A stretch of DNA of 64,000 bases from Flavobacteriales bacterium (GTDB lineage Bacteria; Bacteroidota; Bacteroidia; UBA10329). The notes below the pieces were generated by a model that saw only the letters and a list, made by a program, of their open reading frames with translations, ran no database searches and was not told the origin of the DNA. Shown here piece by piece: positions 6,591 through 40,404 of the stretch. Location of the stretch: positions 132,053 through 196,052 of the forward strand of contig JBIKWM010000002.1 in assembly GCA_044356305.1 (NCBI GenBank). Reading direction: 5' to 3'. Within the stretch, counting starts at the first letter, position 1. Every line of letters begins with the position of its first letter. Both the position numbers and the translations under genes were made by a program.

Positions 6591-6878
6591 TTACTCAGGT
6601 TTTATCCCATACTTCTTGAAATAGGCCGCCTTCTTCTCATTCAAGCGGGCCCGTTCTCCCTCATAGTCATTGATGTTGTTCTTATTCGCCTCAATCTTGG
6701 CCTCAAACTCTTTTATCGCTCTCAGTTCGCGCGCAGCCTCATTCTCCTGTTCAACTGACTGGGTGCTGGTGGTTGTGCCCTGCGAAGTGCCCTGCGAAGT
6801 GCCCTGCGATGTACTCTGCGCCACGCAAATGCCACTGAATGCGGCCACCAGTATGAATGTTAGCGTCTGCTTTTTCAT
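6591..6878 (-). CDS. Small secreted protein (95 aa), paralog of 18346..18663 and 18716..18994
   Basis: Signal peptide MKKQTLTFILVAAFSGICVAQ, STSQGT x3 linker, then charged helix AIKEFEAKIEANKNN. Similar architecture to the two other small secreted ORFs. Confidence 0.5.
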   Translation of the reverse strand: MKKQTLTFILVAAFSGICVAQSTSQGTSQGTSQGTTTSTQSVEQENEAARELRAIKEFEAKIEANKNNINDYEGERARLNEKKAAYFKKYGIKPE

Positions 6879-9900: not shown

Positions 9901-12900
9901 ATCCAGCGGTTGTAATGGTTGCAGACTGAGCAGTTCCACCGCTCGGGCTCCAGTTATAGGTGTTGGCTGTGCTCGAGGTCAGAGTAACGCTGCCGCCTTG
10001 GCAAATTGCAATTGGACCGCCCGCTGTAACAGTAGGCACAGTCGGAGCAATGTCGTTGCTCAGGGTGAATGCCCCCGTGCCGGTCCCGAATCCTGTGACA
10101 TAAACAAAATACTGCGTTCCAGCTGTGGTGGCCGCTGTCACACTGCTCTGAAGGCCGCAGGCATCGTCATTACCGCCCACGCAGACCAAAGAGGTGCAAG
10201 GCCCTTCAAACACACCTATCTTACTATCGTAAGTAGTGCCAGTGCATGTGTTCAAGGTCACTGCGGCTCCTGTACCGAAGAACGAATACCATACCCCTGG
10301 AGCTGTATTGAGGGTCGTGGTACATGTGGCCGGGGCATCACTTGCATCTGCGCCCACTGTGGTCCCGTTCACTGGCGTTCCGCATGTAAGTGGCAATGCT
10401 CCACCGCACAGATCATTTACCGGAGCTGGGGTACAGGTCAACGTCAGTGTGAAGTCACCTGAATTGGTCCCGAATCCGGTCACGTAGATAAGGTACTCCT
10501 GTCCCACTATAGAAGTGAATGCCACACTGCTCTGAAGGCCGCAGGCGTCATCATTTCCAGCCACGCATCCCAAGGTGGCACAAGGACCGGTGAACACCCC
10601 GATCTTGGTGTCCCAAGCAGCACCCCCACAGGTTGATACTGTAACAGCATCGCCTGTTCCGGTGAATGTGTACCACACACCGGGTGACGTGTTCAATGTC
10701 GTGGTACATGTGGCCGGGGCATCTGCCGCATCAGCTCCGGTAGTTGTACCGTTTACCGATTGTCCACATGTAATTGCAATTGCCCCACCGCACAGGTCGT
10801 TGGGGATTGTATTCGATGTCACAGTCACGGGTTGGCAATCTTGGTCGGTACCACAGGTGTTTGTAACCGTGAGGCAAACTGTGTATGTCCCTGCCGCGGC
10901 ATAGGTATGTGCAGGGTTGGCCGTGTTGTCAGTGCCCCCATCACCAAAATCCCACGCATAGGTTGTTGGCCCACCGGTGCTGGCATCAGTGAAGGTGGCG
11001 TCCAAGTTATTGGTCACTGAAGTGAATGAAGCCGTTGGTGCTGTATTGACCGCTACAGTAGCTGTACCGCTTCCCGTGCCTGTACAAGTCGTTGCATCAG
11101 TAACGTTTGGTATTGTGTAAGTCCCAGCAGTGCTCACGGTCTGAGTGAACGGGCTTGTGGTGATGTTCAATGTCGAATTAGAAGTGCCATCATTCAGAGT
11201 AACTGTCCAAGGGCCTGTGCCGGTGAGGGTGATTGTCAGGTCGGTTGTCTGACCCTGACAGATGGTGGCCCCACCAGATAGTGTTGCGGTCGGGGCCGGG
11301 TTAACAGTGACTACAGTTGGAAGCGATGTAGCCTGGCAATTATTGACATCAACCGTTGTAACGGTATAAGAACCAGAAGTGGTCACCGTATTGGTCTGCC
11401 CTGTTCCACCTGTCGGGGCCCATGTGTAAGAAGCAGAAGTATTTGCCGAAAGGGTAACACTTCCACCCTGACAGAAGGTCGTTGGGCCTCCTGCAGTGAT
11501 GGTCGGGCCGATTGGCGTCATGTTATTGCTGAGTGTGAACGCTCCCGTTGCCGTACCGAAGCCGGTCACATACACGAAGTACTGGGTGCCGGCCGTGGTG
11601 TTTGCCGTCACACTGCTCTGTAGGCCCGAACCGCAACCTGTTGCATCATCATTTCCGGCTATACAGGTAAGTGCGGTGCACGGCCCTTGATAGACCCCTA
11701 TCTTACTGTCATATGTTGTGCCGGTGCAGGTGTTGAAGGTGACCGGGGCGCCCGTACCAAAGAAAGAGTACCACACACCACCTGCAGTATTGAGCGTTGT
11801 GGTACAAGGCGAGAGGGCGCCTGTCGTGGTGGAATTCACAGTGGTGCCGTTCACAGCCACTCCGCATGTGAGCGGAATTGCATTGCCACACAGGTCATTG
11901 GCAGGAGGGGGCGGTGCAACGCAGGTATTGCAGGTCACCGTGGTGGTGCGGCATGTGTTCTGGGTTCCGCACGCATTGCTAGTGCTGATATGCAGCCTAA
12001 CTGTTCCTGAGAATGTGGCCGTCCACGTGATTGGGGTGGTGCCAGAGGCAAGTACAGGCGTAGAGCTTGTCCCATCGGTGAGCACCAGCCAATCTGTTGC
12101 AATACTCGAGGTGAAGGTGTAGGTCTGACCGGCCACCACATTGTTTATCACAGCAAACTCACCAGCGAAATTGCAGGTTGAGATAGTGACTGTTGTCGGT
12201 GTGGTCGGTGCGTTGGCGGTACCGAATTGCGGAGTATGAATGCAGTCAACAGTCCCGACAACCGTCACATTCTGACAGATCTGGTTACTGCCGCAGCCAT
12301 TGGTGGCGGTCAGGCATACGTTATAAGTGCCTCCGGCCGCATAGGTGTATGTCGGGTTCTGAAGGGTCGAGGTGCCTCCGTCACCAAAGGTCCATGCCCA
12401 AGAGGTGGGAGTACCTGTGCTCGCATCCGTGAAGCTCGCGTCAAGTGCAGCCGTTGTCGATGTGAATGCCGCAACCGGGGTGCTGCCCGTGGTCACTGTG
12501 GCCGATCCGCTCGATGTGCCTGTGCAGCCGGTGGCATCGCTCACACTCGATACGGTGTACGTGCCGGCAGTGGTGACCGTGGTGGTGAATGGGCTGGTCA
12601 AAATCCCTGTGGTGGGTGTGCCGTTCAGCACAATACTCCACGGGGCCGTGCCTGTAAGGGCAACGCTCACCGTCACCCCCACTCCGTTGCACACCACACC
12701 ACCACCACTCACCGTGGCTGTTGGGGCCGTGTTCACTGTCACAGTGGTCGGGGCCGATGTCGCAGCGCAGTTGTTCAGATCATTCACTGCAACGGTGTAT
12801 GAACCGGCAGTGGTTATAGTAGCCGACTGAGCCGTGCCTCCACTTGGAGACCATGCATAGGTGTTGGCCGTGCTCGAAGTAAGAGTAACACTGCCGCCCT

Positions 12901-15205
12901 GACAGAAAGTGGTAGGCCCACCGGCAGTCACTGTAGGAGTCACCGCGGTCAAATCATTGCTCAAGGTAAATGCTCCCGTTGCAGTACCGAAGCCGGTCAC
13001 ATACACAAAGTACTGGGTGCCGGCAGTTGTAGCCGCATTCACTGTGCTCTGGAGGCCGCAGGCATCATCATTTCCACCTACACAGGTCAATGAGGCACAT
13101 GGGCCCTGAAACACCCCTATCTTGCTATCATAGGTGGTGCCAGTACATGTATTGAGACTAACTGTGGCACCTGTTCCAAAGAAAGAATACCAAACCCCGG
13201 CAGCTGTATTCAATGCGGTGGTGCACGTTGCAGGAGCGTCAGCAGCGGTGGCACCCACCGTGGTGCCGTTCACCGGAGTACCGCAAGTCAGGGGAATGGC
13301 TCCACCGCACAAGTCATTGGTAGGGGGAGATACGCAAGTGATGCTCATGGTGAATGCACCTGTATTTGCTCCGAACCCAGTAACATAAATGAAATAGGTG
13401 GTTCCTACTGCACTTGTGAAAGTCACGGTGCTCTGCAATCCGCATGCATCGTCATTTCCTGCAACACAGGTCAGCGCCCCGCATGCCCCACTGAATACCC
13501 CAAGTTTACTGTCGTAGGCCGTGCCAGTGCATGTGCTGACTGTAACAATGTCACCCGTTCCCACAAAACGGTACCATATACCCCCAGAAGTATTTAAGGT
13601 CGTAGTGCAGGTTGCTGGTGCATCGGCAAGGTCGGAACCAACCGTGGTACCGGTCACCGTCTGACCGCAGGTAACGGTTATCGCACCGCCACAAAGGTCA
13701 TTCACTATACCACCGGACACAGTCACATTCTGGCAGATCTGATTGCTGCCGCAACCGTTGGTCGCAGTAAGGCACACGTTATAGGTGCCACTCGCTGCGT
13801 AGGTGTAGGATGGGTTCTGCAGGGTCGAGGTGCCTCCGTCACCAAAAGTCCATGCCCAAGAGGTAGGGCTTCCTGTACTTGCATCAGTGAAACTCGCAGC
13901 AAGCGCAGCTGTGGTGGAGGTGAATGCCGCGGTAGGCGTGACTCCCGTAGTAACGACAGCTGAGCCACTCGATGTGCCCGTGCAGCCGTTAGCATCAGTC
14001 ACACTCGATACAGTGTAAGTAGCTGCGGCAGTTACGGTAGTGGTGAATGGGCTCGTAGCGATTCCGTTGAATGGCGTGCCATTAAGGACAATGTTCCAAG
14101 GGGCCGTTCCCGTAAGGGCCACTGAAACTGGCACTCCTACTCCGTTACATACCACGCCACCGCCACTAACTGTGGCTGTTGGGGCTGTGAACACAGTGAC
14201 CGCAGTGGCTGCCGAAGTTGCCGCACAACCATTGATGGTGCCGGCAACGGTGTAGCTTCCTGCAGCAGATACGGTAGCCGATTGGGCCGAACCACCGCTC
14301 GGGCTCCATGCATAGGTGCTTTGGAAAGAAGATGTGAGGGTGACGCTACCACCGGGGCAGAATGAAGTAGGACCGCCAGCTGTAACGGTCGGAGTAACCG
14401 CTGCCAGATCATTCGACATTGTGAAGTTGCCTGTATTGCCACCGAAACCGGTCACATAAACAAGGTAATTCGTCCCAAGAGTGGAGGTGAATGTCACGGT
14501 TGATTGAACCCCGCACGCATCATCATTACCTGCCACACATGTCAGTGCCCCGCATGTGCCCGTGAACACCGCAATCTGGCTGTCGTAATCAGTTCCAGTG
14601 CACGTTGACAGGGTTACAGAAGCTCCGGTTCCAACAAAGCTGTACCATACACCTCCGGCCCCGGTCAGCGCAGCCGATGTTCCACAAGCCGCCCCTGGGG
14701 CACCGGTTGTCGTGGCATTGATGGTTGACTCCGACACAGAAACACCGCAGGTCAATGGAATCGCATCAGCACACAGGTCATTGGCAGGGGGAGTGACAGC
14801 TCCGAACAGACAGCCTGCGCAAGCAGGTTCGGCAGCAGCCTCACCGGCACAGATACCGTCCCATTGGGTATTACAACAGAATGGGTCTAGGGCGCAAATG
14901 GCCGTCTCGCAAGCAGGGTCGCTCGGAAATCCAGCTGTGGCCTGGGTCTGGTCGCAGAATGCACTCCCACCTGTGCTCAAGCAGCCAGCACAAGCAGGTT
15001 CCGCGGCCGCACTCGCTGCACAAATTCCATCCCAAAGGGTGTTGCAACAAAACGGGTCTGCAGGACAAATGGCATTCTGACAGTTGATGTCTGATGGAAA
15101 TCCTGCCGTTCCCTGCGCCTGATCACAGAACTGGGCGAATGCACTTTGAAACCCGAATAGGGCGAATGCGATTGTCGCAATTGTCTGAATGGAGAAATTT
15201 CTCAT
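6962..15205 (-). CDS. Giant (2747 aa) T9SS-secreted adhesin-like repeat protein: two N-terminal 8-Cys modules, many PPC-like domains, PKD domains, Ig-like repeats, type-A sorting domain
   Basis: Signal peptide MRNFSIQTIATIAFALFGFQSAFAQ. Two copies of FCDQxQxTAGFPSD..CxxAICxxDPFCCNTxWDGICA..AAEPACAGCL. ~110-aa modules NDLCGGAIPLTCG...GVWYSF.GTG..VT.STC.GT.YDSKIGVF.G.C..L.CV.GNDDACGLQS.V...GFG..TGAFTLS repeated >8 times. WAWTFGDGGTST..NP.YTY PKD motifs. C-terminal VYPNPSGGQFTV...GTYLLQVLN CTD. Confidence 0.85.
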   Translation of the reverse strand: MRNFSIQTIATIAFALFGFQSAFAQFCDQAQGTAGFPSDINCQNAICPADPFCCNTLWDGICAASAAAEPACAGCLSTGGSAFCDQTQATAGFPSDPACETAICALDPFCCNTQWDGICAGEAAAEPACAGCLFGAVTPPANDLCADAIPLTCGVSVSESTINATTTGAPGAACGTSAALTGAGGVWYSFVGTGASVTLSTCTGTDYDSQIAVFTGTCGALTCVAGNDDACGVQSTVTFTSTLGTNYLVYVTGFGGNTGNFTMSNDLAAVTPTVTAGGPTSFCPGGSVTLTSSFQSTYAWSPSGGSAQSATVSAAGSYTVAGTINGCAATSAATAVTVFTAPTATVSGGGVVCNGVGVPVSVALTGTAPWNIVLNGTPFNGIATSPFTTTVTAAATYTVSSVTDANGCTGTSSGSAVVTTGVTPTAAFTSTTAALAASFTDASTGSPTSWAWTFGDGGTSTLQNPSYTYAASGTYNVCLTATNGCGSNQICQNVTVSGGIVNDLCGGAITVTCGQTVTGTTVGSDLADAPATCTTTLNTSGGIWYRFVGTGDIVTVSTCTGTAYDSKLGVFSGACGALTCVAGNDDACGLQSTVTFTSAVGTTYFIYVTGFGANTGAFTMSITCVSPPTNDLCGGAIPLTCGTPVNGTTVGATAADAPATCTTALNTAAGVWYSFFGTGATVSLNTCTGTTYDSKIGVFQGPCASLTCVGGNDDACGLQSTVNAATTAGTQYFVYVTGFGTATGAFTLSNDLTAVTPTVTAGGPTTFCQGGSVTLTSSTANTYAWSPSGGTAQSATITTAGSYTVAVNDLNNCAATSAPTTVTVNTAPTATVSGGGVVCNGVGVTVSVALTGTAPWSIVLNGTPTTGILTSPFTTTVTTAGTYTVSSVSDATGCTGTSSGSATVTTGSTPVAAFTSTTAALDASFTDASTGTPTSWAWTFGDGGTSTLQNPTYTYAAGGTYNVCLTATNGCGSNQICQNVTVVGTVDCIHTPQFGTANAPTTPTTVTISTCNFAGEFAVINNVVAGQTYTFTSSIATDWLVLTDGTSSTPVLASGTTPITWTATFSGTVRLHISTSNACGTQNTCRTTTVTCNTCVAPPPPANDLCGNAIPLTCGVAVNGTTVNSTTTGALSPCTTTLNTAGGVWYSFFGTGAPVTFNTCTGTTYDSKIGVYQGPCTALTCIAGNDDATGCGSGLQSSVTANTTAGTQYFVYVTGFGTATGAFTLSNNMTPIGPTITAGGPTTFCQGGSVTLSANTSASYTWAPTGGTGQTNTVTTSGSYTVTTVDVNNCQATSLPTVVTVNPAPTATLSGGATICQGQTTDLTITLTGTGPWTVTLNDGTSNSTLNITTSPFTQTVSTAGTYTIPNVTDATTCTGTGSGTATVAVNTAPTASFTSVTNNLDATFTDASTGGPTTYAWDFGDGGTDNTANPAHTYAAAGTYTVCLTVTNTCGTDQDCQPVTVTSNTIPNDLCGGAIAITCGQSVNGTTTGADAADAPATCTTTLNTSPGVWYTFTGTGDAVTVSTCGGAAWDTKIGVFTGPCATLGCVAGNDDACGLQSSVAFTSIVGQEYLIYVTGFGTNSGDFTLTLTCTPAPVNDLCGGALPLTCGTPVNGTTVGADASDAPATCTTTLNTAPGVWYSFFGTGAAVTLNTCTGTTYDSKIGVFEGPCTSLVCVGGNDDACGLQSSVTAATTAGTQYFVYVTGFGTGTGAFTLSNDIAPTVPTVTAGGPIAICQGGSVTLTSSTANTYNWSPSGGTAQSATITTAGSYTVTVNDLNNCSATSTATVVTVNPAPTATLSGGGTACSGQTVDLTITTTGTGPWTVVMNDGSTNSTINVTSSPFTQAVGAAGNYSLVSVADASSCPGTVSGSATVTVTTSPTATISGGGQVCNGVGVDITGTFTGTGPWTVVLNDGLNDIPLPPIVTSPFTQNVTLPGTYTIVSVTDATSCPGTVSGSAIVTSGNGPTAAFTSAPTDLTVVFTDASTGSPTTWAWDFGDSNTSTQQNPTHTYTTAGTYNVCLTVTNNCGTNQICQSVTVTSASCTAAAGTISSSATACLVNGTATLTGTPGGNAVVPGGFATVYALSQGTNIVQVSATPTFTVTATGTYTLHTLVYNPADIDPTSVPLPVPVALVNGQLIQGGGTFCGSLDLVGATVTVVDAIVPTVTALGPVSFCQGGSVDIQSSTANSYSWTPSGNTQTITATATGTYSVTTVDANGCSATSNTIDVTVNSGPTADISGGGAICAGAGVDITGTLTGVGPWDVVVSTPGGPFPITGITASPYSQNVTVPGDYILISVSDASGCPGTVSGTATVTTGGNLPVASFTASANLLTVTFTDASTDATTYAWDFGDSGTSTSASPTHTYLADGTYNVCLTVTNSCGTDQFCQTVTVSSNACPVSAGTLNASAAPACLTPGQTVTLDATPSGNSIVPTGFQTLYLLVQGGIIQQTNTTPSFAVNSNGIYTIHTFVYDPNTFSTATIQNGVTTVASVNAQLLQGGGAICASLALSGVNFNVVTPVVPVVTPQGPTDICPGDAVLLTSSTASQYLWLPNQATASFTHASAPGDYTVTTVDANGCIATSAPVVVTNLPVTTGIITANGNTLTVDQVTTGYQWFHNGDPIPGANDQSYDAVESGYYWVIYTDPNGCETSSDTIEFSYIGIEEVGFDYISVYPNPSGGQFTVAVGEAKEELTFIVTELTGRVLFRQTIAQMGDIRQEISLDVASGTYLLQVLNNDGRGTSSLIQVMR

Positions 15206-31940: not shown

Positions 31941-32206
31941 CCCCGACTGCGCAAATCGTACCCGACAAAACTATGAGGTATATGTTAAGCAGATCTCCCA
32001 CCGCCATTCCTCTAAGCGAACAGCCCATGGAATATCCGCACTGATTCTGAAATGACAGAAGCCGCTGTATCGATTGCCTTTATCCATGACCACCGCACTT
32101 GCGCGGTCTGCATCTCTTATGAAGTCACAGAGACTTCGAGCGTCATGTTCCGCACGGGTTATCCCGTGGAACGCATGAGCGAACGGGGGTTTATTAACCC
32201 ATTGCC

Positions 32207-33388
32207 CTAATTTTTTAGTAACCGGCTCCTTACCACCGAACCATCTCTCAATTTGACCGAAACAACATATACCCCCGAGTACAGGTGCTCAACATGGATT
32301 GTACTCTTCAAACCACTCACCTTCTGAACAGCCACCACTTTGCCCAATTGGTCTTGGATGGTGACATGTTCTATTTCAGAATTTGAGCCTGTAACATTGA
32401 ACTGTACTTGATCATTTGCTGGGTTTGGATAAAGTTCAAGGGTGTATTCCTCCGATTCTCGAATGCCGATGCTATTATCCTCACGCAATTCAACGGCATC
32501 GATGAAGTAAGAACTTGCTTCCCAACTATTGATAAGGGGTGGGTTGGAACTGACACGTTGAAAACTCAGTTCATCCTCTGAGCGGAAAACACCAATGGTC
32601 ATGAACTTCTCGCCACCATGAGCAATAAATTGCCCACTGATCTCAACCCAATTCACCCTGTCCTCCAACAAAAAACTATCCGGGCTCTCCACCTGTGGTT
32701 TGGCCACAATAAAACTATCAATAGGAAGAAAGCGGGTGGTATTCTCAGTAAACAGGGCCCCAATGTTGGCTACAGCGAAATTCACACTATCAGCAAGATT
32801 CACACGGCATTTGAACAGATAACCGTGGCCACTATTTAGGCTTTCAGGCAGTTCCATCCACAGGTATTCTCGGGCATTTGCCCAAAATGGGGTGTAGCAG
32901 GCAAAGTGGCCATAGGCTACCCCATCATATGCATCTTGATAACCATATTGATTGTTTGGCACCCCAAACTTTGGCCAATCCTCGTTGCTGCATGCATTGA
33001 AGTAATCAACTGACCCATAGGCTGAGCCCCAATACTCTGACACAGTTATCCAGCCTGGGCTAGAAGGGCATGCCGGGTCACCGTTTACATCCAATTCTAT
33101 CTCTTCAAAACTATAGTTCGGAATAATATTAGGCCCTAACTGGGCAATTGCGTTTTGTACATTAAACAATGTGACCCAAAGAAAGAAATATGTAGTGGTG
33201 GTTCTCCCCCTTTCGCTCGCGTCTCGCGAGTGAGAATTTCTCTGCCTCTGGCATTCTGAGAAAATTCTTTTCCATTGACGCGCCCGAGCGAGGCTGTGCG
33301 GTGTGCTGGCGCGTAGGGTCTTTCCCTCGCGCCTTTTATTCGGTGGTCTCCAGCCCACCCAGTGGCCAGTGTTCTCATGCCTCATCAT
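32207..33388 (-). CDS. Low-GC T9SS type-A cargo protein; 5' end runs into repeat unit, start codon uncertain (possible pseudogene)
   Basis: C-terminal ELYPNPANDQVQFNV...GVYVVSVKL sorting domain. Signal-peptide-like ...YFFLWVTLFNVQNAIAQ has no in-frame ATG/GTG. The ORF-track N-terminus MMRHENTGH... is repeat-derived. GC ~44% vs ~60% flanks. Confidence 0.55.
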   Translation of the reverse strand: MMRHENTGHWVGWRPPNKRREGKTLRASTPHSLARARQWKRIFSECQRQRNSHSRDASERGRTTTTYFFLWVTLFNVQNAIAQLGPNIIPNYSFEEIELDVNGDPACPSSPGWITVSEYWGSAYGSVDYFNACSNEDWPKFGVPNNQYGYQDAYDGVAYGHFACYTPFWANAREYLWMELPESLNSGHGYLFKCRVNLADSVNFAVANIGALFTENTTRFLPIDSFIVAKPQVESPDSFLLEDRVNWVEISGQFIAHGGEKFMTIGVFRSEDELSFQRVSSNPPLINSWEASSYFIDAVELREDNSIGIRESEEYTLELYPNPANDQVQFNVTGSNSEIEHVTIQDQLGKVVAVQKVSGLKSTIHVEHLYSGVYVVSVKLRDGSVVRSRLLKN

Positions 33389-33470
33389 CAGTTCCGTTCA
33401 CCAAAGGTCAACAATTATCTGAGTCACACACCATTCCGGCTCATCCAGATCCTTCCATTACGACCCCCTC
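33205..33470. repeat. Tandem repeat unit A copy 1 (~265 bp, hairpin-rich)
   Basis: ccccct-ttcgctcgcgtctcgcgagtgagaatttctctgcctctggcattctga...cattacgaccccctcc. ~90% identical to copies 2 and 3. Confidence 0.85.
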
Positions 33471-33736
33471 CCCCCCCTTCGCTCGCGTCTCGCGAGTGAG
33501 AATTTCTCTGCCTCTGGCATTCTGAAAAAATTCTTTTCCATTGGCGCGCCCGAGCGAGGCTGTGCGGTGTGCTGGCGCGTAGGGTCCTTCCCTCGCGCCA
33601 TTTATTCGGTGGGCTCCAGCCCACCCGGTGGCCAGTGTTCTCATGCCTGCTCATCATTCCGATTCACCAAAGGTCAACAATTATCTGATTCACACACCAT
33701 TCCAGCTCATCCAGATCCTTCCATTACGACCCCCTC
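33471..33736. repeat. Tandem repeat unit A copy 2
   Basis: Directly abuts copy 1 head-to-tail. Same internal palindromes (ctcgcgag, gagaatttctc, ggtgggctccagcccacc). Confidence 0.85.
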
Positions 33737-33900
33737 CTCACAAACAGCCAACAGCCATCTGTAAATCTGTACTCATCCATAATCCACATCAGCCTTAACA
33801 CCCGGTACCTTCCACCACACCCCTCCTCGCAAATAGCCATCAATCATTTGTATATCCGTACTCATCTGTAATTCGCATCAGCCCCTAACAGAAAACCCCG

Positions 33901-34167
33901 ACCCCCCCCTTCGCTCGCGTCTCGCGAGTGAGAATTTCTCTGCCTCTGGCATTCTGAAAAAATTCTTTTCCATTGGCGCGCCCGAGCGAGGCTGTGCGAT
34001 GTGCTGGCGCGTAGGGTCCTTCCCTCGCGCCATTTATTCGGTGGGCTCCTGCCCTCCCAGTGACCCGTGTTCTCATGCCTCATCATCAGTTCAATTCACC
34101 AAAGGTCAACAATTATCTGAGTCACACACCATTCCGGCTCATCCAGATCCTTCCATTACGACCCCCT
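33901..34167. repeat. Tandem repeat unit A copy 3
   Basis: Separated from copy 2 by a 164-bp spacer made of sub-repeat B. Confidence 0.85.
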
Positions 34168-34480
34168 CCTCGCAAATAGCCATCAATCATTTGTATATCC
34201 GTACTCATCTGTAATTCGCATCAGCCCCTAACAGAAAACCCCGACCATACCGGCCGGGGCCTTCCCTTTCACTCTCACCCTCACTTTCACTCTCACCCTA
34301 CCAAATGGCCAACAGCCAACGGCTATCAACCATTTGTATATCCGTACTCATCTGTAATTCGCATCAGCCCTAAACAGAAAACCCTCACCACACCGGCCAG
34401 GGCCTTCCCTTTCACTCTCACCCTCACTTTCACTCTAACAAATGGCCAACAGCCAACGGCTATCAACCATCTGTGTCTCC
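34168..34480. repeat. Mosaic of sub-repeats B/C (70-90 bp units)
   Basis: tcgcaaatagccatcaatcatttgtatatccgtactcatctgtaattcgcatcagcccctaacagaaaaccccgacc occurs at 33825 and 34159. ggccttccctttcactctcaccctcactttcactct...aaatggccaacagccaacggctatcaaccat occurs at 34258 and 34401. Confidence 0.8.
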
Positions 34481-34637
34481 GCCAACCCCACAAATCCCTG
34501 CCCCATCACCATAGGGCAACGGGTATTTGACGGGCCTCGGGCCATCAAAACCAGCATTATCCTCCTTTTTGGTAGCCCCTCTTCACAGAAAACTGTCGGA
34601 GGGCACCAGATTGCTGAAAGCCGCGCCATCACTGCTT

Positions 34638-34770
34638 TCGTACGATCCATAATTGCTATCGCACGATCCATAATTGCTGTCGCACGTCTCATAATTGCTG
34701 TCGTACGATCCATGATCGCTGTCGTACGTATCGCACATTGCTGTCGCTTGCTTCCCGAATGCTGTCGTTC
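34638..34770. repeat. Six degenerate 21-bp direct repeats (iteron-like) upstream of the sensor-phosphatase gene
   Basis: cgtacgatccataattgctat / cgcacgatccataattgctgt / cgcacgtctcataattgctgt / cgtacgatccatgatcgctgt / cgtacgtatcgcacattgctgt ... spaced 21 bp, ~70-200 bp upstream of 34839. Confidence 0.7.
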
Positions 34771-34838
34771 TCCGCATCTCCCCTGACACTCTACTCCGCA
34801 CAATCATTGACTCTCGCCCCGGCCCCGGCCTACATCGC

Positions 34839-37800
34839 ATGCAGCGCGTGGCGCAGCCCAAGGAGACCCATAACCTAAAGCGCAGCGGTGCCGTATCAGC
34901 GCGCTGCCCTGACCAGGCCCTCTTCATCCGCGCCTTGCGAAACCTACACGGCATAGCGGCCCTTGTGGCCGCCCTTCTGCTGGCCCCATCGGTCACCGCA
35001 CAGACATACGACATCCGCACCTTCGGCATTGACGAGGGTCTGCCGCAGGCCGAGGTCAACCACATGATCCAAGACAGCCGCGGCCACCTCGTAGTGGCCA
35101 CCAACGGGGGCGGTGCGGCCCTCTTTGACGGGTCAGGGTTTGCCGTGATAGGAATGGCCGAAGGACTGCCTGACGTCAAGGTGACCCACGTGGCCGCAGG
35201 CCCTGACGGCTCCCTTTGGCTTGCACACCCGGGGCACGGCCTGAGCAGGGGTACCGGCCAGGCCCCGCTCAGCTTCAGTGCTCTGGCCGGCCTTCCGAGC
35301 CAACAGGTGAACACCCTACTGGCCGATGGCGACAGCGTGCTCTGGGCCGGAACCTTTGGTGGGCTGTGCGCTGTGCGCGGCAAGGACCTGCGCCTACTGA
35401 CCAAGGCCGATGGTCTTCCGTCTGACGACATACGCGCCATATGCCGCGACCGGGCGGGTGCGCTCTGGGTGGGCACTTACGGGGGCGGTGTGGCCCGCCT
35501 CGACAACGGCACGTTCGTGCCCTTCGGCATCGAGGCCGGACTCACTGACGGCTTCATCTCCGATCTGTTCCTGGCCCGTGACGGCCGCATGCTGGTGGCC
35601 ACTGCCTCGGGCGTGCTGGTGTGGGACGGCCAATCGTTCGCACCCCTGCGCAATGCAGGGGCCGTGCGTGTCAATGCCATGGCCGAGGATGCACAGGGCA
35701 ACATCTGGCTCGCCACCCCCGAAGGGGCCCTCATGGTGGGCGACCTGGGCCGCGAACTGCTCTCTGACCGCAACGGACTGCCCCACCCCGAGGTGCTCAG
35801 CATCTGTATAGACCGCGAACAGAACATCTGGTTCGGCACGCGCAAGGGCCTGGCCCGGCTCGCACACAGGGCCATGGCCCACTTTGCCCCGCAGGGCCGC
35901 CCCGCCCTCGAGCCGAGCGCCTTTGGCCGGTTGCCCGATGGCACGCTGGTGCTCACCGACCGCACTGGCGGGGCGCTGCGTATTGACGGCAATGCATTTA
36001 TTCCCATTGTCAACGATGCCGATGTGGCCAGCCACCCGTTCAGCAGCCTCGCCACCGGGGCCGATGGCAGGCTATGGCTGGGCACCTCCGATTTCGGTGG
36101 TCTCTTCAGCATCAGCGATGGCAAGGTGAGCATCTATTCTGATGAGCCCGGGCTGATGGACAACAGCATCTCGGCCCTGGTCACTGGGGCCGACAGCCGC
36201 CTCATCATCGGTACCCCGGGCGGACTGAGCTATTTCGATGGCGACCGGTTTGTGCCCGGCCCGTCCGATCTGGGCCACATCACCGCCCTCACTCCCACCG
36301 TGGGGTCCGATGTGCTTGTAGGGACACTTTCGGGGGCCGTTCTGCACCTGCATGCCGACCGCGCAGACACGGTACACAGCGCCAAGGTGCCCATCACGGC
36401 CCTGGTGGCCATGCCCGATGGGCGCAAGGCCATAGGCACCGATGGCGAGGGCGTGGTGGTAATTGGCAAAGAGAGCCGTTTCGCAGTGACCGAGGCCGAT
36501 GGCCTCACCTCGCGGTTTGTGCGCAGCCTTGTGTGGGACGGCCGCCACCTGTGGGCAGGCACGGCCAAAGGCGTGTCGCGGCTTCTCCTCGGTGCCGATT
36601 CGGCCCAAGTGCTCGCCATCACCCAGGCGCACGGATTCAGCGGCAGCGAGTGTCTGCCGGGCGCACTGATGACCGATGGCGATATGCTGTGGGTGGGCAC
36701 CATCAAGGGCGTCACACGCATCAACAAATCGCTGGTCGGGCGCGATACCGTCCAGCCTGTGGTGTTCCTCACATCGGTTCAGCTATTGCTGCAGGAGGTG
36801 AACAGCGGGGCCGGCACCTCCGCCCTACCCCACAGCCTCGACCTCGGCCACGATGACAACCACCTGCGATTCAGTTTCAAGGCCATCTCCCTTACCAATC
36901 CGGAGCTTATCACCTATCGTTGGCGACTGGTGGGGTATGATGTCGAATGGAACGAGGGCAGCAGCGGGGTGGCCAATTATCCGAACCTGCCTCACGGAGA
37001 GTATGTGTTTGAAGTGGTGGCCTGCAACAGCGATGGCGTGTGTACCGAGGCTCCGGTGCAATTCAGCTTCCGCATCCGCCCTCCCTTCTGGAAAACGGTC
37101 TGGTTCTATGTCGTTGTGGCCTTTGCCGTCATGACCACCGTGGTGCTGTGGGTGCGCTGGCGCGAGCGCAGGCTGCTGGCCCTCAACCGCGAACTGGAGG
37201 ATAAGGTGGACCTGCGCACCCGCGAGCTGAAGGAACAGCGCGACCTGGTGGAGGAGAAGAACAGGCACATCACCGAAGGGATAGAGTATGCCCGCAACAT
37301 CCAGATGGCCATTCTGCCCTCGGCTTCCGAGCTCGATAGGGCGTTCAGTGAACATTTCGTGATCTACATGCCCAAAGACACCGTGGGGGGCGACTTCTAT
37401 TGGGCCTATACCAGCGGCACGGTCACATGGGCCGTGGCAGCCGACTGCACCGGACATGGTGTGGCAGGGGCATTCATGAGCATGATAGGCAGCGACCTGC
37501 TCAACCAGCTCATCATTGAGCAGGGGGCCACATCGCCTGCTGCGGTGCTGCGAGAGCTCGACCGCGGCATCAAACTGGCCTTTGCCCAGAGCGCCAAGGA
37601 GTTTGAGAACGATCAGGGCATGGACGTGGCCATGGTGCGCCTTGACCGCGCCTCCCGACACATCACATTTGCAGGGGCCATGCGGCCATTGCTGGTGGTG
37701 GGCCAAGAGGTGAACGAGACCGAGGGCGACCGGCACACCATCTCCAGTGCCGAACATGGGCCGGTCGCCTTCACCGACCGCTCCATCACTCTGGCCGAAG

Positions 37801-38015
37801 GCGAGACCGTTTATATCTATTCCGATGGGCTCTGCGACCAGTTCGGTGGGCCAAGGGGTAAGAAATTCGGGTCGAAACAGCTGCGCGAGCTGATCGCTGC
37901 CATGAACGGACAGCCCCTTGCGGCACAGCACGATGCCCTGCTCAGCGCCATCACCGCATGGAAAGGCCAAGAGCCTCAACAGGACGACATCATGATCCTC
38001 GCATTCAGACCTTGA
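34839..38015 (+). CDS. Membrane sensor: periplasmic two-component-regulator beta-propeller + Y_Y_Y domain, TM helix, cytoplasmic PP2C/SpoIIE serine phosphatase
   Basis: Repeated propeller blades (WFGT.KGL, LWVGTYGGGVARLD etc.). TM VWFYVVVAFAVMTTVVLWV. Coiled coil. SpoIIE core VGGDFYWAYT...AVAADCTGHGVAGAFMSMIG...DGLCDQFGG...QDDIMILAFR. Confidence 0.8.
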   Translation: MQRVAQPKETHNLKRSGAVSARCPDQALFIRALRNLHGIAALVAALLLAPSVTAQTYDIRTFGIDEGLPQAEVNHMIQDSRGHLVVATNGGGAALFDGSGFAVIGMAEGLPDVKVTHVAAGPDGSLWLAHPGHGLSRGTGQAPLSFSALAGLPSQQVNTLLADGDSVLWAGTFGGLCAVRGKDLRLLTKADGLPSDDIRAICRDRAGALWVGTYGGGVARLDNGTFVPFGIEAGLTDGFISDLFLARDGRMLVATASGVLVWDGQSFAPLRNAGAVRVNAMAEDAQGNIWLATPEGALMVGDLGRELLSDRNGLPHPEVLSICIDREQNIWFGTRKGLARLAHRAMAHFAPQGRPALEPSAFGRLPDGTLVLTDRTGGALRIDGNAFIPIVNDADVASHPFSSLATGADGRLWLGTSDFGGLFSISDGKVSIYSDEPGLMDNSISALVTGADSRLIIGTPGGLSYFDGDRFVPGPSDLGHITALTPTVGSDVLVGTLSGAVLHLHADRADTVHSAKVPITALVAMPDGRKAIGTDGEGVVVIGKESRFAVTEADGLTSRFVRSLVWDGRHLWAGTAKGVSRLLLGADSAQVLAITQAHGFSGSECLPGALMTDGDMLWVGTIKGVTRINKSLVGRDTVQPVVFLTSVQLLLQEVNSGAGTSALPHSLDLGHDDNHLRFSFKAISLTNPELITYRWRLVGYDVEWNEGSSGVANYPNLPHGEYVFEVVACNSDGVCTEAPVQFSFRIRPPFWKTVWFYVVVAFAVMTTVVLWVRWRERRLLALNRELEDKVDLRTRELKEQRDLVEEKNRHITEGIEYARNIQMAILPSASELDRAFSEHFVIYMPKDTVGGDFYWAYTSGTVTWAVAADCTGHGVAGAFMSMIGSDLLNQLIIEQGATSPAAVLRELDRGIKLAFAQSAKEFENDQGMDVAMVRLDRASRHITFAGAMRPLLVVGQEVNETEGDRHTISSAEHGPVAFTDRSITLAEGETVYIYSDGLCDQFGGPRGKKFGSKQLRELIAAMNGQPLAAQHDALLSAITAWKGQEPQQDDIMILAFRP

Positions 38016-38040: not shown

Positions 38041-40404
38041 ATGTTCCGCCCGCTCATACTGCTCCTCTCTTTCACCGCCCTGATCGGTCAGGCATGGGCG
38101 CAGCAGGCCGAGATTGACCGGCTCAACGACCGCCTGCGGGCCGAGCTTGCCCCCAAGGGTACCAAGGCCGACACGGCCAGGGCTGAGGTGATGGTGCAAC
38201 TGGCCGAGCTCTACGTGAAGGTGGACCCCGACCGCGCACTTGACCTGTGTAAGGATGCGCTCGGTATAAGTATCCGCCACGCCAACAACCGCCTTGTGTC
38301 GCGCATCTACAACTGCACGGGCACCGTTAACCGCATCAAGGGCGACTATGAGAAGGCGATCCAGTTTCACGAACGCGCACTTGAGACTGACCGGAAGTCC
38401 GCTGACCGAATGGGCATCGCCCTGTCGCTCAACAACCTTGGCAACGCCTATCTGGGACAGGGCCGACTGAATGAGGCCAGGCAGCGCTATGCCGAATCGT
38501 TGGCCATCAGGCAGGATCTGGGCGATCAGGCTCCTATTGCCGCATCGCTCAATAACCTTGGAATGGTATACCGCAACATGGGCGACCATGACAAGGCCCT
38601 TGTCTATTACCAGAATGCCCTTAGGATATTCCAACAGCAGAATGACCAGCTCGGCACGGCCAATGCGCTGAACAACATCGGCATCGTTCAGCGCAATCAG
38701 GGAAATCTTGACCGGGCCATGGAGAGTTTCCAATCGGCACTGAAGGTGTTCGAGAAGGAGTACAATAAGGTGGGAATGGCTTTCACCCTCAACAACATTG
38801 GCAACATATACCAGCAGCAGGGCAATCAGGGGCAGGCCCTGAGCCTGTATGACCAATCGTTGAAGCTCAGTGAGGAGCTGGGCGACCGCGCCTCGGCTGC
38901 GGGCAAGTACAACAACATGGGGGCCGTTTATCACGACAAGGGCGATATGAGTTCGGCCCTCGATATGACCCAACGGGCTCTGCGCATACAACGGGAGCTG
39001 GGCGACCAGAGCGGTCAGGCCAACACGCTTAACAATCTGGGGGCCTATTACCGCGAACAGGGCGATGCCGACCGCGCGCTGGAGAGTTTCCTTGAGGCAG
39101 AGCGCATACAGAGGCGCACAGGCGACAACAACTACACCGTGGAGACCCTCACTTCCATTGGCGAACTGTATAGCAAGAAGGGCGAAGGCGGCAAGGGCCT
39201 CCGCTACCTCGAAGGGGCCATGGAGGCTGCCAAAGAGAAGCGGTCAGGACAAGAGCTGCAGCGTGTATACACCGCCATGAGCGAGGCCTATGCGCAGGCA
39301 GGCGACTTTGAACGCAGCTATAGGTACCAAAAACTCAATGCCAATCTCAAAGACTCGCTCGAAAGGACAGTGAATGTGCGCCAATTGGCAGAGATGCAGG
39401 CCAAATTTGAGACCGAGCGCAAACAGCGCGAGATAGACCAGCTGAACCGCGACCGCGAGGTGAAGGACCTTGTCATGGGCCGCCAGCGCATGGTGCGTAA
39501 CCTGATGATCGTGTTGGCGGTGCTGATAATGGCGCTGGCCGTGGTGCTGTTTCAGCGCTACAGGGCCAAGCAGCGGGCCAATGAGGAACTGGGGCGGAAA
39601 AACGAGGAGATAGAGGCCCAACGCTCCATCCTGAAAGAGAAGAACGAGGAGATAACCGATAGCATTGAGTACGCCAAGCGCATTCAGGATGCCATCCTGC
39701 CATCACTTGATGAGGTGACGCGGGTGCTGCCCCAGAGTTTCATCTATTTCCGCCCAAAGGCCATTGTTAGTGGCGATTTCTATTGGTTCAATGAGGTGAA
39801 CGGAACTGCTTTCCTCGCAGCCGTTGACTGTACCGGCCACGGGGTGCCCGGGGCTTTTATGAGTATGATAGGCAACGACCACCTCAACCAGGTGGTTCTG
39901 GTAGAGGGGTGCAAACGCCCCGATGAGATCCTCAACCGCCTGCATGCCGAGGTGCAGCACACCCTGCGCCAGCGCCACGGCCTCACTGAGACCCACGTGG
40001 GCATGGACATTGCCCTTTGCGCCATTGACCTTGAGAGCGGACTTCTGCAATTTGCCGCTGCCAATAGGTATCTGATGCTTTTCCGTGGAGAGGAACTCAC
40101 CGAACTGAAGGGCGACCATCTCAATGTGGGCGGCATCATGCACGAGGATGTGCGCAACTATACACTCCACGAGCTTCAACTCAACCCGGGCGACTGCCTT
40201 TATATGTTCAGCGATGGAGTCACTGATCAGTTCGGTGGACCAGACGACCGCAAGTTCGGTTACCGCAGATTGCGCGAGATGCTGCGCGACATACGCCACC
40301 TGCCCATGCAGGATCAGCGCGCCACTGTTGAACGCGGTCTGCTCTCATGGATGGGCCAACGTGACCAGATTGATGATTTCGTACTGATCGGGGTGCGGGT
40401 GTGA
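38041..40404 (+). CDS. Membrane sensor: TPR-repeat periplasmic domain, TM helix, PP2C/SpoIIE serine phosphatase
   Basis: Signal peptide MFRPLILLLSFTALIGQAWAQ. ~9 TPRs (LNNLGNAYLGQGRLNEA...). TM LMIVLAVLIMALAVVLF. SpoIIE core SGDFYWFNEV...AAVDCTGHGVPGAFMSMIGN...DGVTDQFGG...DDFVLIGVRV. Confidence 0.8.
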   Translation: MFRPLILLLSFTALIGQAWAQQAEIDRLNDRLRAELAPKGTKADTARAEVMVQLAELYVKVDPDRALDLCKDALGISIRHANNRLVSRIYNCTGTVNRIKGDYEKAIQFHERALETDRKSADRMGIALSLNNLGNAYLGQGRLNEARQRYAESLAIRQDLGDQAPIAASLNNLGMVYRNMGDHDKALVYYQNALRIFQQQNDQLGTANALNNIGIVQRNQGNLDRAMESFQSALKVFEKEYNKVGMAFTLNNIGNIYQQQGNQGQALSLYDQSLKLSEELGDRASAAGKYNNMGAVYHDKGDMSSALDMTQRALRIQRELGDQSGQANTLNNLGAYYREQGDADRALESFLEAERIQRRTGDNNYTVETLTSIGELYSKKGEGGKGLRYLEGAMEAAKEKRSGQELQRVYTAMSEAYAQAGDFERSYRYQKLNANLKDSLERTVNVRQLAEMQAKFETERKQREIDQLNRDREVKDLVMGRQRMVRNLMIVLAVLIMALAVVLFQRYRAKQRANEELGRKNEEIEAQRSILKEKNEEITDSIEYAKRIQDAILPSLDEVTRVLPQSFIYFRPKAIVSGDFYWFNEVNGTAFLAAVDCTGHGVPGAFMSMIGNDHLNQVVLVEGCKRPDEILNRLHAEVQHTLRQRHGLTETHVGMDIALCAIDLESGLLQFAAANRYLMLFRGEELTELKGDHLNVGGIMHEDVRNYTLHELQLNPGDCLYMFSDGVTDQFGGPDDRKFGYRRLREMLRDIRHLPMQDQRATVERGLLSWMGQRDQIDDFVLIGVRV

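What the first reader, a model, noticed from the sequence alone, without database searches (positions are those of the whole stretch)
34638..34770. Iteron-like 21-bp direct repeats immediately upstream of the propeller/Y_Y_Y-PP2C sensor gene
Six consecutive degenerate 21-bp units (core cgyacgatccataattgctgt) lie 70-200 bp upstream of the 34839 start. The 21-bp spacing is two helical turns, which would put repeated sites on one face of the DNA. That is typical of cooperative transcription-factor arrays or iterons. Their position suggests regulation of the downstream sensor-phosphatase pair. The minus-strand ORF 34435..34803 (TAIMDRTTAIMRRATAIM...) and the plus-strand ORF 34442..34786 are translation artefacts of this repeat.
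Basis: seen in the sequence. Interest (0 to 1): 0.6.

Follow-up and report, generated by a model that had tools for sequence, protein, structure and literature searches.

The report
Strain-variable 21-bp repeat array upstream of sensor
A real, copy-number-variable array of 21-bp direct repeats lies in a strain-specific spacer upstream of a sensor-phosphatase gene in an uncultured Bacteroidota bacterium; it is not a replication iteron and not a gene, and it may be a tunable row of protein-binding sites.

Summary
The 21-bp array is real. TRF places it at 34626-34746 (5.7 copies). A 10-bp core, ATTGCTGTCG, recurs in phase at eight positions from 34610 to 34767. The motif occurs nowhere else in the 64 kb.

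The array is the right-hand end of a 1.64-kb gene-free, C-over-G-skewed patchwork of nested tandem duplications (33197-34838). It lies between a swappable T9SS-cargo gene cassette and the sensor/PP2C operon.

The closest relatives (81% identical sensor; three contigs) lack the whole ~2.9-kb segment. Near-identical strains carry 6 or 7 units, each allele seen in two independent assemblies. One 96.8%-identical strain (L060) has an unrelated upstream region with a different 12-unit 21-bp array.

Outer units keep the core but not the other 11 nt (block permutation p=0.015). There is no Rep gene, DnaA-box cluster, AT-rich stretch or plasmid/phage similarity. I found no coding periodicity, no RNA structure and no homologues of the repeat ORFs outside this locus.

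Best reading (about 40%): a same-face array of protein-binding sites upstream of the sensor promoter, with site number changed by slippage. Main rival (about 33%): a neutral minisatellite in a recombination hotspot. Modest interest.

The parts
34631..34736 (.). Central, near-identical 21-bp units (five units; the fifth is 22 bp). This is the recently amplified part, and it is where strains L005 and L059 carry one extra unit.
   Evidence: TRF. Unit table. Allele comparison of window and L001 (6 units) against L005 and L059 (7 units).
34589..34630 (.). Two degenerate left-hand units, in phase. They keep ACTGTCG and ATTGCTG only.
34737..34778 (.). Two right-hand units that keep the 10-bp core (0 and 1 mismatch) but not the other 11 nt (8 and 6 mismatches).
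34779..34869 (+). Lineage-specific stretch between the array and the conserved sequence. The sensor promoter presumably lies here (inferred, not shown). Haplotype breakpoints sit at 34817 (against L060) and 34870 (against L002).
   Evidence: No consensus promoter found.
34839..38015 (+). Sensor phosphatase gene (Reg_prop propeller, Y_Y_Y, SpoIIE/PP2C). The conserved start is probably TTG 34935.
   Evidence: Pfam. Relatives' gene models of 1012 and 1026 aa and the alignment.
38041..40404 (+). Second phosphatase gene (TPR repeats plus SpoIIE/PP2C). It is co-oriented, 25 bp downstream, and syntenic in all relatives.
34482..34588 (.). Unique part of the spacer between the repeat modules and the array.
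   Evidence: no internal repeat match.
34268..34481 (.). Two 'C/B' modules of about 140 nt, 86-90% identical, with TCACTC hexamer runs. They include the ATG of the artefactual plus-strand ORF.
   Evidence: (D2, D6).
33738..33903 (.). Two 'B' modules. 33820-33903 is 100% identical to 34163-34246.
   Evidence: (D3).
33203..33468 (.). 'A1' unit (~266 nt). It abuts the 5' end of the T9SS-cargo gene, and the long minus-strand ORF runs through it.
33469..33737 (.). 'A2' unit, 95% identical to A1. Its plus strand carries terminator-like hairpins.
33904..34169 (.). 'A3' unit, 95% identical to A1.
32162..33200 (-). Swappable T9SS-cargo gene cassette (Por_Secre_tail domain). It lacks the canonical start codon here. 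Strain L059 has an unrelated T9SS-cargo gene in its place, and L006 has a 72% mosaic allele.
31942..32161 (.). Left part of the ~2.9-kb segment that is absent from the 81% relatives. It is shared by all window-type strains and holds the only Bacteroidota -7 box nearby (31973, minus strand).

Best explanation
The array is a non-coding, strain-variable minisatellite. It consists of at least eight copies of a 10-bp core (ATTGCTGTCG) held at 21-bp spacing, which is two helical turns, so all cores face the same side of the DNA.

I think it most likely acts at the DNA level as a row of same-face binding sites for an unidentified protein, or as an architectural element. It would sit just upstream of the promoter of the sensor-phosphatase operon. 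Units are gained and lost by slipped-strand mispairing or unequal recombination (6 versus 7 units between strains). That changes the number of sites without changing helical phase, and so could tune expression.

Shown: the repeat, its phasing, core-biased conservation, copy-number polymorphism, lineage specificity, and the absence of coding, RNA-structure and replicon signals.

Inferred: protein binding, the target gene, and any effect on transcription.
For: 1. Strict phasing over about 170 bp, with spacings of 21, 21, 21, 21, 21, 22 and 21.
2. The outer units keep the core but not the rest. Core mismatches are 5/40 against 24/44 for the remainder (Fisher p=7e-5, core defined post hoc). With the consensus taken from the central units only, a column-permutation test for any contiguous 10-nt conserved block gives p=0.015. 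Uniform neutral decay of old units does not predict this.
3. Copy number differs by exactly one unit between otherwise 97-100% identical strains. Each allele appears in two independent assemblies: 6 units in the window and L001, 7 units in L005 and L059.
4. In strain L060 the sensor gene is 96.8% identical from 34817 onward, but the upstream DNA is unrelated. That DNA carries a different 12-unit, indel-free 21-bp array with an invariant GTTG..AC core.
5. No other 21-bp array was found in about 470 kb of other Bacteroidota sensor loci. A second array by chance is therefore unlikely.
6. The array sits 61-157 bp upstream of the two candidate starts of the sensor gene, on lineage-specific DNA that must contain that gene's promoter.
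7. Direct repeats at a 21-bp period are a known operator geometry. LytTR regulators bind repeats separated by 12 +/- 1 bp (PMC6193735).
Against: - The three contigs of the closest relative type (81% identical sensor) have the same operon with only about 61 nt where the window has 2.9 kb. The array is therefore dispensable for the operon.
- Outside the array the core with up to 1 mismatch occurs 6 times, against 4.8 expected for the whole 64 kb. There is no regulon signal.
- No DNA-binding protein gene was found in the window.
- No recognisable promoter lies next to the array.
- The window and L060 arrays share no detectable sequence, so one specific factor cannot bind both.
- The surrounding 1.6 kb is full of other tandem duplications, so the region is repeat-prone in any case.
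- L060 is a single short-read contig with adapter sequence at one end. Its junction needs checking.
Confidence: 0.4

Rival explanations
1. The array is a neutral minisatellite. It is a by-product of replication slippage and unequal recombination in a hyper-recombinogenic, fast-turnover spacer, with no function of its own.
For: - The array is the end of a 1.64-kb patchwork of nested direct duplications: three A units, B and C modules, and hexamer runs.
- The whole 2.9-kb segment is missing in the nearest relatives.
- The neighbouring gene cassette and the A-unit number differ between co-occurring strains.
- Array copy number is polymorphic.
- The motif is unique to this site.
- Short-read contigs break at these repeats.
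Against: - Core-only conservation in the outer units.
- An independent 21-bp array at the equivalent place in L060, while such arrays are otherwise absent from about 470 kb of comparable loci.
- L060 has 12 units at roughly 25% divergence with no indel.
Confidence: 0.33
2. The repeat encodes a small heptad-repeat peptide (21 bp = 7 codons). Candidates are the minus-strand ORF called by annotation pipelines (74 aa, DSNYGSY heptads) and the plus-strand ORF (IIAVARS heptads). L060 has an analogous LKLLLRS reading.
For: - Five of the six reading frames stay open across the units.
- Gene callers annotated the minus-strand ORF in two assemblies, as P0164 and P0165.
- Both arrays have a period that is a multiple of three.
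- The plus-strand readings in both strains are hydrophobic heptads ending in R-S.
Against: - No Pfam hit.
- No homologue in 5.8 billion proteins other than the two alleles of this locus.
- Variable sites are spread evenly over codon positions in the window array.
- Entropy by phase in L060 is 0.84, 0.72 and 0.62, with no third-position excess.
- One 22-bp unit shifts the frame inside the array.
- The plus-strand ORF starts inside a duplicated module.
Confidence: 0.06
3. The array works at the RNA level. It would be a repeated motif in the 5' leader of the sensor mRNA, or in a separate non-coding RNA, that binds an RNA-binding protein or an sRNA.
For: - The array lies between possible promoter positions and the conserved TTG start at 34935.
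- The plus strand of the spacer is C-rich and G-poor, with GC skew of -0.2 to -0.6. From general knowledge, that composition is typical of Rho-binding RNA.
Against: - No Rfam match, even at E<=5.
- The array folds worse than shuffled sequence: RNA z=+2.5, DNA z=+1.1.
- The array itself is not C-skewed, with 5 C and 4 G per unit.
- No transcript data are available.
Confidence: 0.06
4. The repeats are true iterons or centromere-like repeats of an integrated plasmid, phage or ICE replicon.
For: Repeat length, number and tandem phasing resemble plasmid iterons, which from general knowledge are 17-22 bp and occur in 3-7 copies.
Against: - No Rep, Par or integrase gene among the window's ORFs.
- No DnaA-box cluster and no AT-rich unwinding stretch. 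GC is 0.52-0.60 beside the array.
- No similarity to 72,556 plasmids or 50,697 phage records.
- The flanks are chromosomal genes that are syntenic in relatives.
Confidence: 0.02

Closest known systems
Promoter tandem repeats with copy-number variation (promoter VNTRs, e.g. the dop, lpdA and cysG promoter repeats of Mycobacterium tuberculosis; PMC12817950)
   Same: A tandem repeat lies just upstream of a gene. The unit number differs between very close strains. Strand slippage or recombination is the likely mechanism. The suggested effect is a tuning of expression.
   Different: In M. tuberculosis the repeated unit (57 bp for dop) contains the promoter itself. Here the unit is 21 bp, no promoter element is recognisable in it, and no expression effect has been shown.
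LytTR-family operators (AgrA, ComE, HdrR/BrsR): short direct repeats separated by 12 +/- 1 bp (PMC6193735, PMC4227749)
   Same: A core of about 9-10 bp plus a spacer of about 11-12 bp gives a 21-bp period. The repeats are direct, and they lie upstream of a promoter.
   Different: LytTR sites come as one pair close to the -35 element, whereas here there are 8-9 sites. The core fits the family consensus, as I recall it, at only about 6 of 9 positions. No LytTR gene is present in the window.
Plasmid replication iterons
   Same: Tandem direct repeats of about 20 bp with a conserved core, in phase.
   Different: There is no initiator gene, no AT-rich or DnaA-box module and no mobile-element context. 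The flanks are chromosomal and syntenic in relatives.
BldC-type head-to-tail oligomerisation on variable numbers of direct repeats (PMC5859096)
   Same: A regulator family that binds a variable number of direct repeats as a cooperative filament. Its repeat is AATTxxxx(C), and the window unit contains AATTGCTGTC.
   Different: BldC repeats are contiguous 9-bp units, not 21-bp units. The 9th base does not fit. No BldC-like gene was found.

Membership tests
Replication iterons | Three or more tandem direct repeats of about 17-22 bp | tested here: met
   Period 21, 5.7 copies by TRF; 8 phased cores.
Replication iterons | An adjacent gene for the initiator (Rep) that binds them | tested here: not met
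   Pfam scans of the flanking ORFs and of 36 other large ORFs of the window found no Rep, Par or integrase domain.
Replication iterons | An adjacent AT-rich unwinding element and DnaA boxes | tested here: not met
   GC is 0.52-0.60 around the array. DnaA-box matches number 14 against 11.6 expected, and none lies within 800 bp of the array.
Replication iterons | Location on a plasmid, phage or other mobile replicon | tested here: not met
   No blastn match to the plasmid or phage collections. Chromosomal synteny in relatives.
LytTR operator | Direct repeats of about 9 bp separated by 11-13 bp | tested here: met
   A 10-bp core plus an 11-12-bp spacer. The geometry is taken from PMC6193735.
LytTR operator | Match to the family consensus repeat | tested here: inconclusive
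   I compared by eye with the consensus recalled from memory ([TA][AC][CA]GTTN[AG][TG]). The fit is about 6 of 9 on the minus strand, and the GTT triplet is absent.
LytTR operator | One pair of repeats placed a few bp upstream of the -35 element | tested here: not met
   There are eight to nine sites, and no -35/-10 or -33/-7 element was found next to them.
LytTR operator | A cognate LytTR regulator gene | tested here: not met
   None among the window ORFs that were scanned. The rest of the genome was not available.
Promoter-proximal VNTR / contingency repeat | A tandem repeat in non-coding DNA directly upstream of a gene | tested here: met
   The coding readings were rejected.
Promoter-proximal VNTR / contingency repeat | Copy number differs between closely related strains | tested here: met
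   6 units in the window and L001; 7 units in L005 and L059. Flanks are 97-100% identical.
Promoter-proximal VNTR / contingency repeat | Copy number changes expression of the downstream gene | not testable with these tools
   This needs reporter fusions or strain-resolved transcriptomes.
Coding heptad repeat | Codon-position bias of variation between units, and homologues elsewhere | tested here: not met
   No 3-periodicity. The only database relatives are two alleles of this same locus.
Known structured RNA (Rfam) | A covariance-model match, or folding better than shuffled sequence | tested here: not met

The most novel reading that the evidence does not exclude
Phased 21-bp arrays are selected upstream of this sensor-phosphatase operon whatever their sequence. 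Two strains carry unrelated arrays, with cores ATTGCTGTCG and GTTGAAAC, at the equivalent place. On this reading the arrays act through a sequence-independent property, such as in-phase curvature or a nucleoprotein filament. Their unit number (6, 7 or 12) would then work as a heritable, slippage-driven rheostat for a stress-signalling phosphatase in an uncultured Bacteroidota lineage.
Probability: 0.15. Interest if true: 0.55.

Novelty: new member of a known kind. Interest (0 to 1): 0.33.

Why it matters
If the array binds a protein, it would be a natural example of expression tuning by copy-number change of phased operator sites. It would sit upstream of a partner-switching-type sensor phosphatase, in a phylum where such tandem-repeat control is, as far as I know, little documented. 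The locus also shows population-level cassette swapping of T9SS-cargo genes. If the array is neutral, it is an ordinary minisatellite. Its main practical use would then be as a strain marker and as a warning for assembly and gene calling, because two pipelines annotated a spurious ORF on it.

Tried and rejected
- **Rfam.** Nothing was found in or near the spacer, either at gathering thresholds or at E<=5.
- **Six-frame translation and Pfam of the repeat ORFs.** No family matched.
- **Protein search with the repeat ORF.** Only two alleles of this same locus came back.
- **Exact look-up of the 51-aa and 74-aa ORF versions.** Neither is on record.
- **Metagenome scan for CCATAATTGCTGTCGYACG.** It gave 8 single hits, all in unrelated sequence and none in an array.
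- **Genome-collection scan for the A-unit 31-mer.** There were 0 hits.
- **Sensor relatives in the genome collection.** All are at or below 36% identity, so this lineage is not represented there. None of those loci has a 21-bp array.
- **Viral scan for two phased cores.** It gave 38 hits, all coding low-complexity repeats and irrelevant here.
- **Plasmid and phage blastn of the whole spacer.** No match.
- **Promoter searches.** No Bacteroidota -33/-7 motif and no sigma-70 consensus lies on the plus strand near the array.
- **DnaA boxes and an AT-rich stretch.** Neither was found near the array.
- **Spacer as a decayed upstream T9SS gene.** tblastn found no protein-level remnant. Only three short collinear DNA matches around an ATGAGGCAT start-like site turned up, and these are not significant on their own.
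- **Homology between the window and L060 arrays or spacers.** None was detectable. Smith-Waterman z was below 0, and the best unit register matched 10 of 21 positions.
- **DNA curvature.** I did not compute it, because I could not vouch for the wedge-angle parameters from memory.

Full report
**1. The observation**

The repeat is real. Tandem Repeats Finder reports a period-21 array at 34626-34746 with 5.7 copies, 83% matches, score 138 and consensus CCATAATTGCTGTCGTACGAT. The repeat finder gives the same family at 21-bp spacing.

The 21-mer with up to 3 mismatches matches four times, against 0.00 expected. The 14-mer CATAATTGCTGTCG with up to 2 mismatches matches four times, against 0.51 expected. 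Every match lies inside the array.

Read in register, a 10-bp core ATTGCTGTCG starts at 34610, 34631, 34652, 34673, 34694, 34715, 34737 and 34758. The spacings are 21, 21, 21, 21, 21, 22 and 21. A weaker ACTGTCG sits in phase at 34589.

**2. Context inside the window**

The array is not an isolated element in a normal intergenic region. It is the right-hand end of a 1.64-kb gene-free stretch, 33197-34838. On the plus strand this stretch has 582 C against 297 G, and GC skew reaches -0.6.

The stretch is built from nested direct duplications:
- three ~266-nt 'A' units, about 95% identical, at 33203, 33469 and 33904;
- 'B' modules of 56-84 nt, including one pair that is 100% identical over 84 nt;
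- two 'C/B' modules of about 140 nt with TCACTC runs.

All of these repeats are local and direct. None occurs elsewhere in the 64 kb.

To the left lies a minus-strand T9SS-cargo gene with a Por_Secre_tail domain. To the right are a Reg_prop/Y_Y_Y/SpoIIE sensor phosphatase and a TPR-SpoIIE phosphatase. The abundance of T9SS signals places the organism in Bacteroidota. No gene for a DNA-binding protein was found among the window ORFs that I scanned.

**3. Comparison with relatives**

*The 81% relatives.* The closest relative type has a sensor 81% identical in protein. It is seen in three Logan contigs: L002, L003 and L061. These keep the synteny DUF3108 / T9SS-tail gene / small membrane ORF / sensor / TPR-SpoIIE. 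They have only about 61 nt where the window has 31942-34869. The extra T9SS cassette, the whole repeat patchwork and the 21-bp array are therefore specific to the window lineage.

Homology on the right resumes at 34870. The relatives' gene models (1012 and 1026 aa) point to TTG 34935 as the conserved start. That start is followed by a normal signal peptide.

*Near-identical strains.* L001 has the same 6-unit array as the window. L005 and L059 come from two different JGI metagenomes and have exactly one more unit, a copy of the fourth unit. The flanks are 97-100% identical. Each allele is thus seen in two independent assemblies, so the copy-number difference is probably real.

L059 spans the whole spacer. 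It carries only two A units. Directly after the end of A2 it has an unrelated T9SS-cargo gene with its own start codon.

L006 carries a 72% mosaic allele of the cassette gene, preceded by another T9SS gene. Different alleles co-occur in the same metagenomes. Sample 3300043803 yields both L010, with the window-type cassette, and L059, with the alternative cassette. The locus is therefore a population-level recombination hotspot.

*Strain L060.* This is the most informative contig. Its sensor gene is 96.8% identical in DNA to the window from 34817 onward. Everything upstream is unrelated. The neighbour is a different gene with a CarboxypepD_reg domain. The 722-nt spacer contains a different tandem array: 12 units of exactly 21 bp, no indels, two alternating subtypes, and an invariant GTTG..AC core.

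I could detect no homology between the two arrays or the two spacers. In about 470 kb of other Bacteroidota loci that carry homologous sensors, TRF found no 21-bp array at all. It found only two arrays of any period of 15 bp or more with at least three copies. A second 21-bp array at this position by chance is therefore unlikely, roughly at the 1% level or below.

Two caveats apply. This lineage may simply be repeat-prone at this site. L060 is also a single short-read contig with adapter sequence at its far end.

**4. What the array is not**

*Not a replication origin or partition site.* There is no Rep, Par or integrase gene in the window. There is no DnaA-box cluster and no AT-rich stretch. 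There is no similarity to plasmids or phages. The flanks are chromosomal.

*Not a conserved protein.* The repeat ORFs have no Pfam hit. The only relatives in 5.8 billion proteins are two alleles of this same locus, of 74 and 81 aa. Variable positions are spread evenly over the three codon positions in the window array. In L060 the entropy by phase is 0.84, 0.72 and 0.62. One unit is 22 bp long and shifts the frame inside the array.

*Not a structured RNA.* Rfam finds nothing. The region folds worse than shuffled sequence: z=+2.5 as RNA and z=+1.1 as DNA.

**5. Function versus neutral decay**

The four central units are nearly identical over their full length, which indicates recent amplification. 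The outer units keep the 10-bp core but have essentially random sequence in the other 11 nt. Core mismatches are 5/40, against 24/44 for the remainder (Fisher p=7e-5). That core was defined after looking at the data.

A less biased test takes the consensus from the central units only, considers any contiguous 10-nt block, and permutes columns. It gives p=0.015. Uniform neutral decay of old repeat units does not predict this pattern. A row of binding sites with free spacers does. The L060 array shows the same architecture.

Several facts point the other way:
- The operon functions in relatives without any array.
- Outside the array, the core occurs at chance level in the window: 6 matches against 4.8 expected for the whole window.
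- No cognate regulator is visible.
- No promoter consensus can be placed next to the array.

**6. Verdict**

My best explanation, at about 40%, is a same-face array of protein-binding sites, or an architectural DNA element, upstream of the sensor-operon promoter. Slippage changes the number of sites without changing helical phase.

The main rival, at about 33%, is a functionless minisatellite produced by the same recombination activity that generated the rest of the spacer. Coding and RNA-level readings each get about 6%. True iterons get about 2%.

The nearest known kinds are promoter tandem repeats with copy-number variation (PMC12817950) and direct-repeat operators with 21-bp geometry, such as LytTR sites (PMC6193735). 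Membership in the LytTR or iteron classes fails on defining features. The array is best filed as a new member of the promoter-proximal VNTR kind.

Noticed in passing
L060 1205-1456 (Logan SRR27946786_27713): A different 21-bp tandem array lies upstream of a 96.8%-identical copy of the same sensor gene. It has 12 units, no indels, a consensus near GTTGAAACYTCTTCTAAGATC, two alternating subtypes that give a 42-bp super-period, and an invariant GTTG..AC core. The surrounding spacer is otherwise unrelated and the left neighbour is a different gene.
   Followed up: partly
window 33203-33468, 33469-33737, 33904-34169: Three ~266-nt 'A' units are about 95% identical. Their plus strand carries terminator-like hairpins (stems at 33211, 33478 and 33910). 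A 70-nt core (33557-33626) is 77% identical to the 3' flank of the homologous T9SS gene in another genome (L007 7583-7650). One hairpin plus its T-rich tail is kept through two compensatory pairs. The relative orientation to the gene is opposite in the two genomes.
   Followed up: partly
window 32162-33388 (minus strand): The T9SS-cargo gene has no start codon where its homologues start (MRHLV...). Gene callers use TTG 33169, which lies inside the signal peptide. The only long ORF runs about 60 codons further through unit A1 to ATG 33388. The gene may be a pseudogene or may have an odd N-terminal extension.
   Followed up: partly
window 32162-33200 compared with L059 and L006: The T9SS-cargo cassette is swapped between co-occurring strains. 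L059 has an unrelated 321-aa T9SS gene. L006 has a 72% mosaic allele preceded by a further T9SS gene. The left junction is at 32161, after CATGTTCCGCACGGGTTA, and the right junction is at the G-run that ends an A unit.
   Followed up: partly
window 34839 and 34935: The annotated ATG 34839 lies in lineage-specific DNA. The 81% relatives start at the TTG equivalent to 34935, which is followed by a normal signal peptide. The 32 N-terminal residues are therefore doubtful.
   Followed up: partly
window 32200-33200 and 34900-38000: Base composition is a mosaic. The T9SS cassette has 43-48% GC and the sensor gene 61-69% GC, against roughly 55% for the window. Together with the sensor's different genomic context in L060, this suggests that both were acquired or moved by recombination.
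   Followed up: no
window 6962-15205 (minus strand): A giant 2747-aa PKD/Ig-repeat T9SS protein has internal DNA repeats of about 1.4-1.5 kb, 60-80% identical.
   Followed up: no
window 6775-6820: A 12-bp tandem repeat (GTGCCCTGCGAA, 3.8 copies, 91% matches) lies in the gap between the M43 peptidase gene and the giant T9SS protein gene.
   Followed up: no
window 34555-34567 (minus strand): AAGGAGG followed after 3 nt by ATG opens a 40-codon ORF just downstream of the array on the minus strand. The spacing is too short for a typical Shine-Dalgarno site, and no conservation data are available.
   Followed up: no
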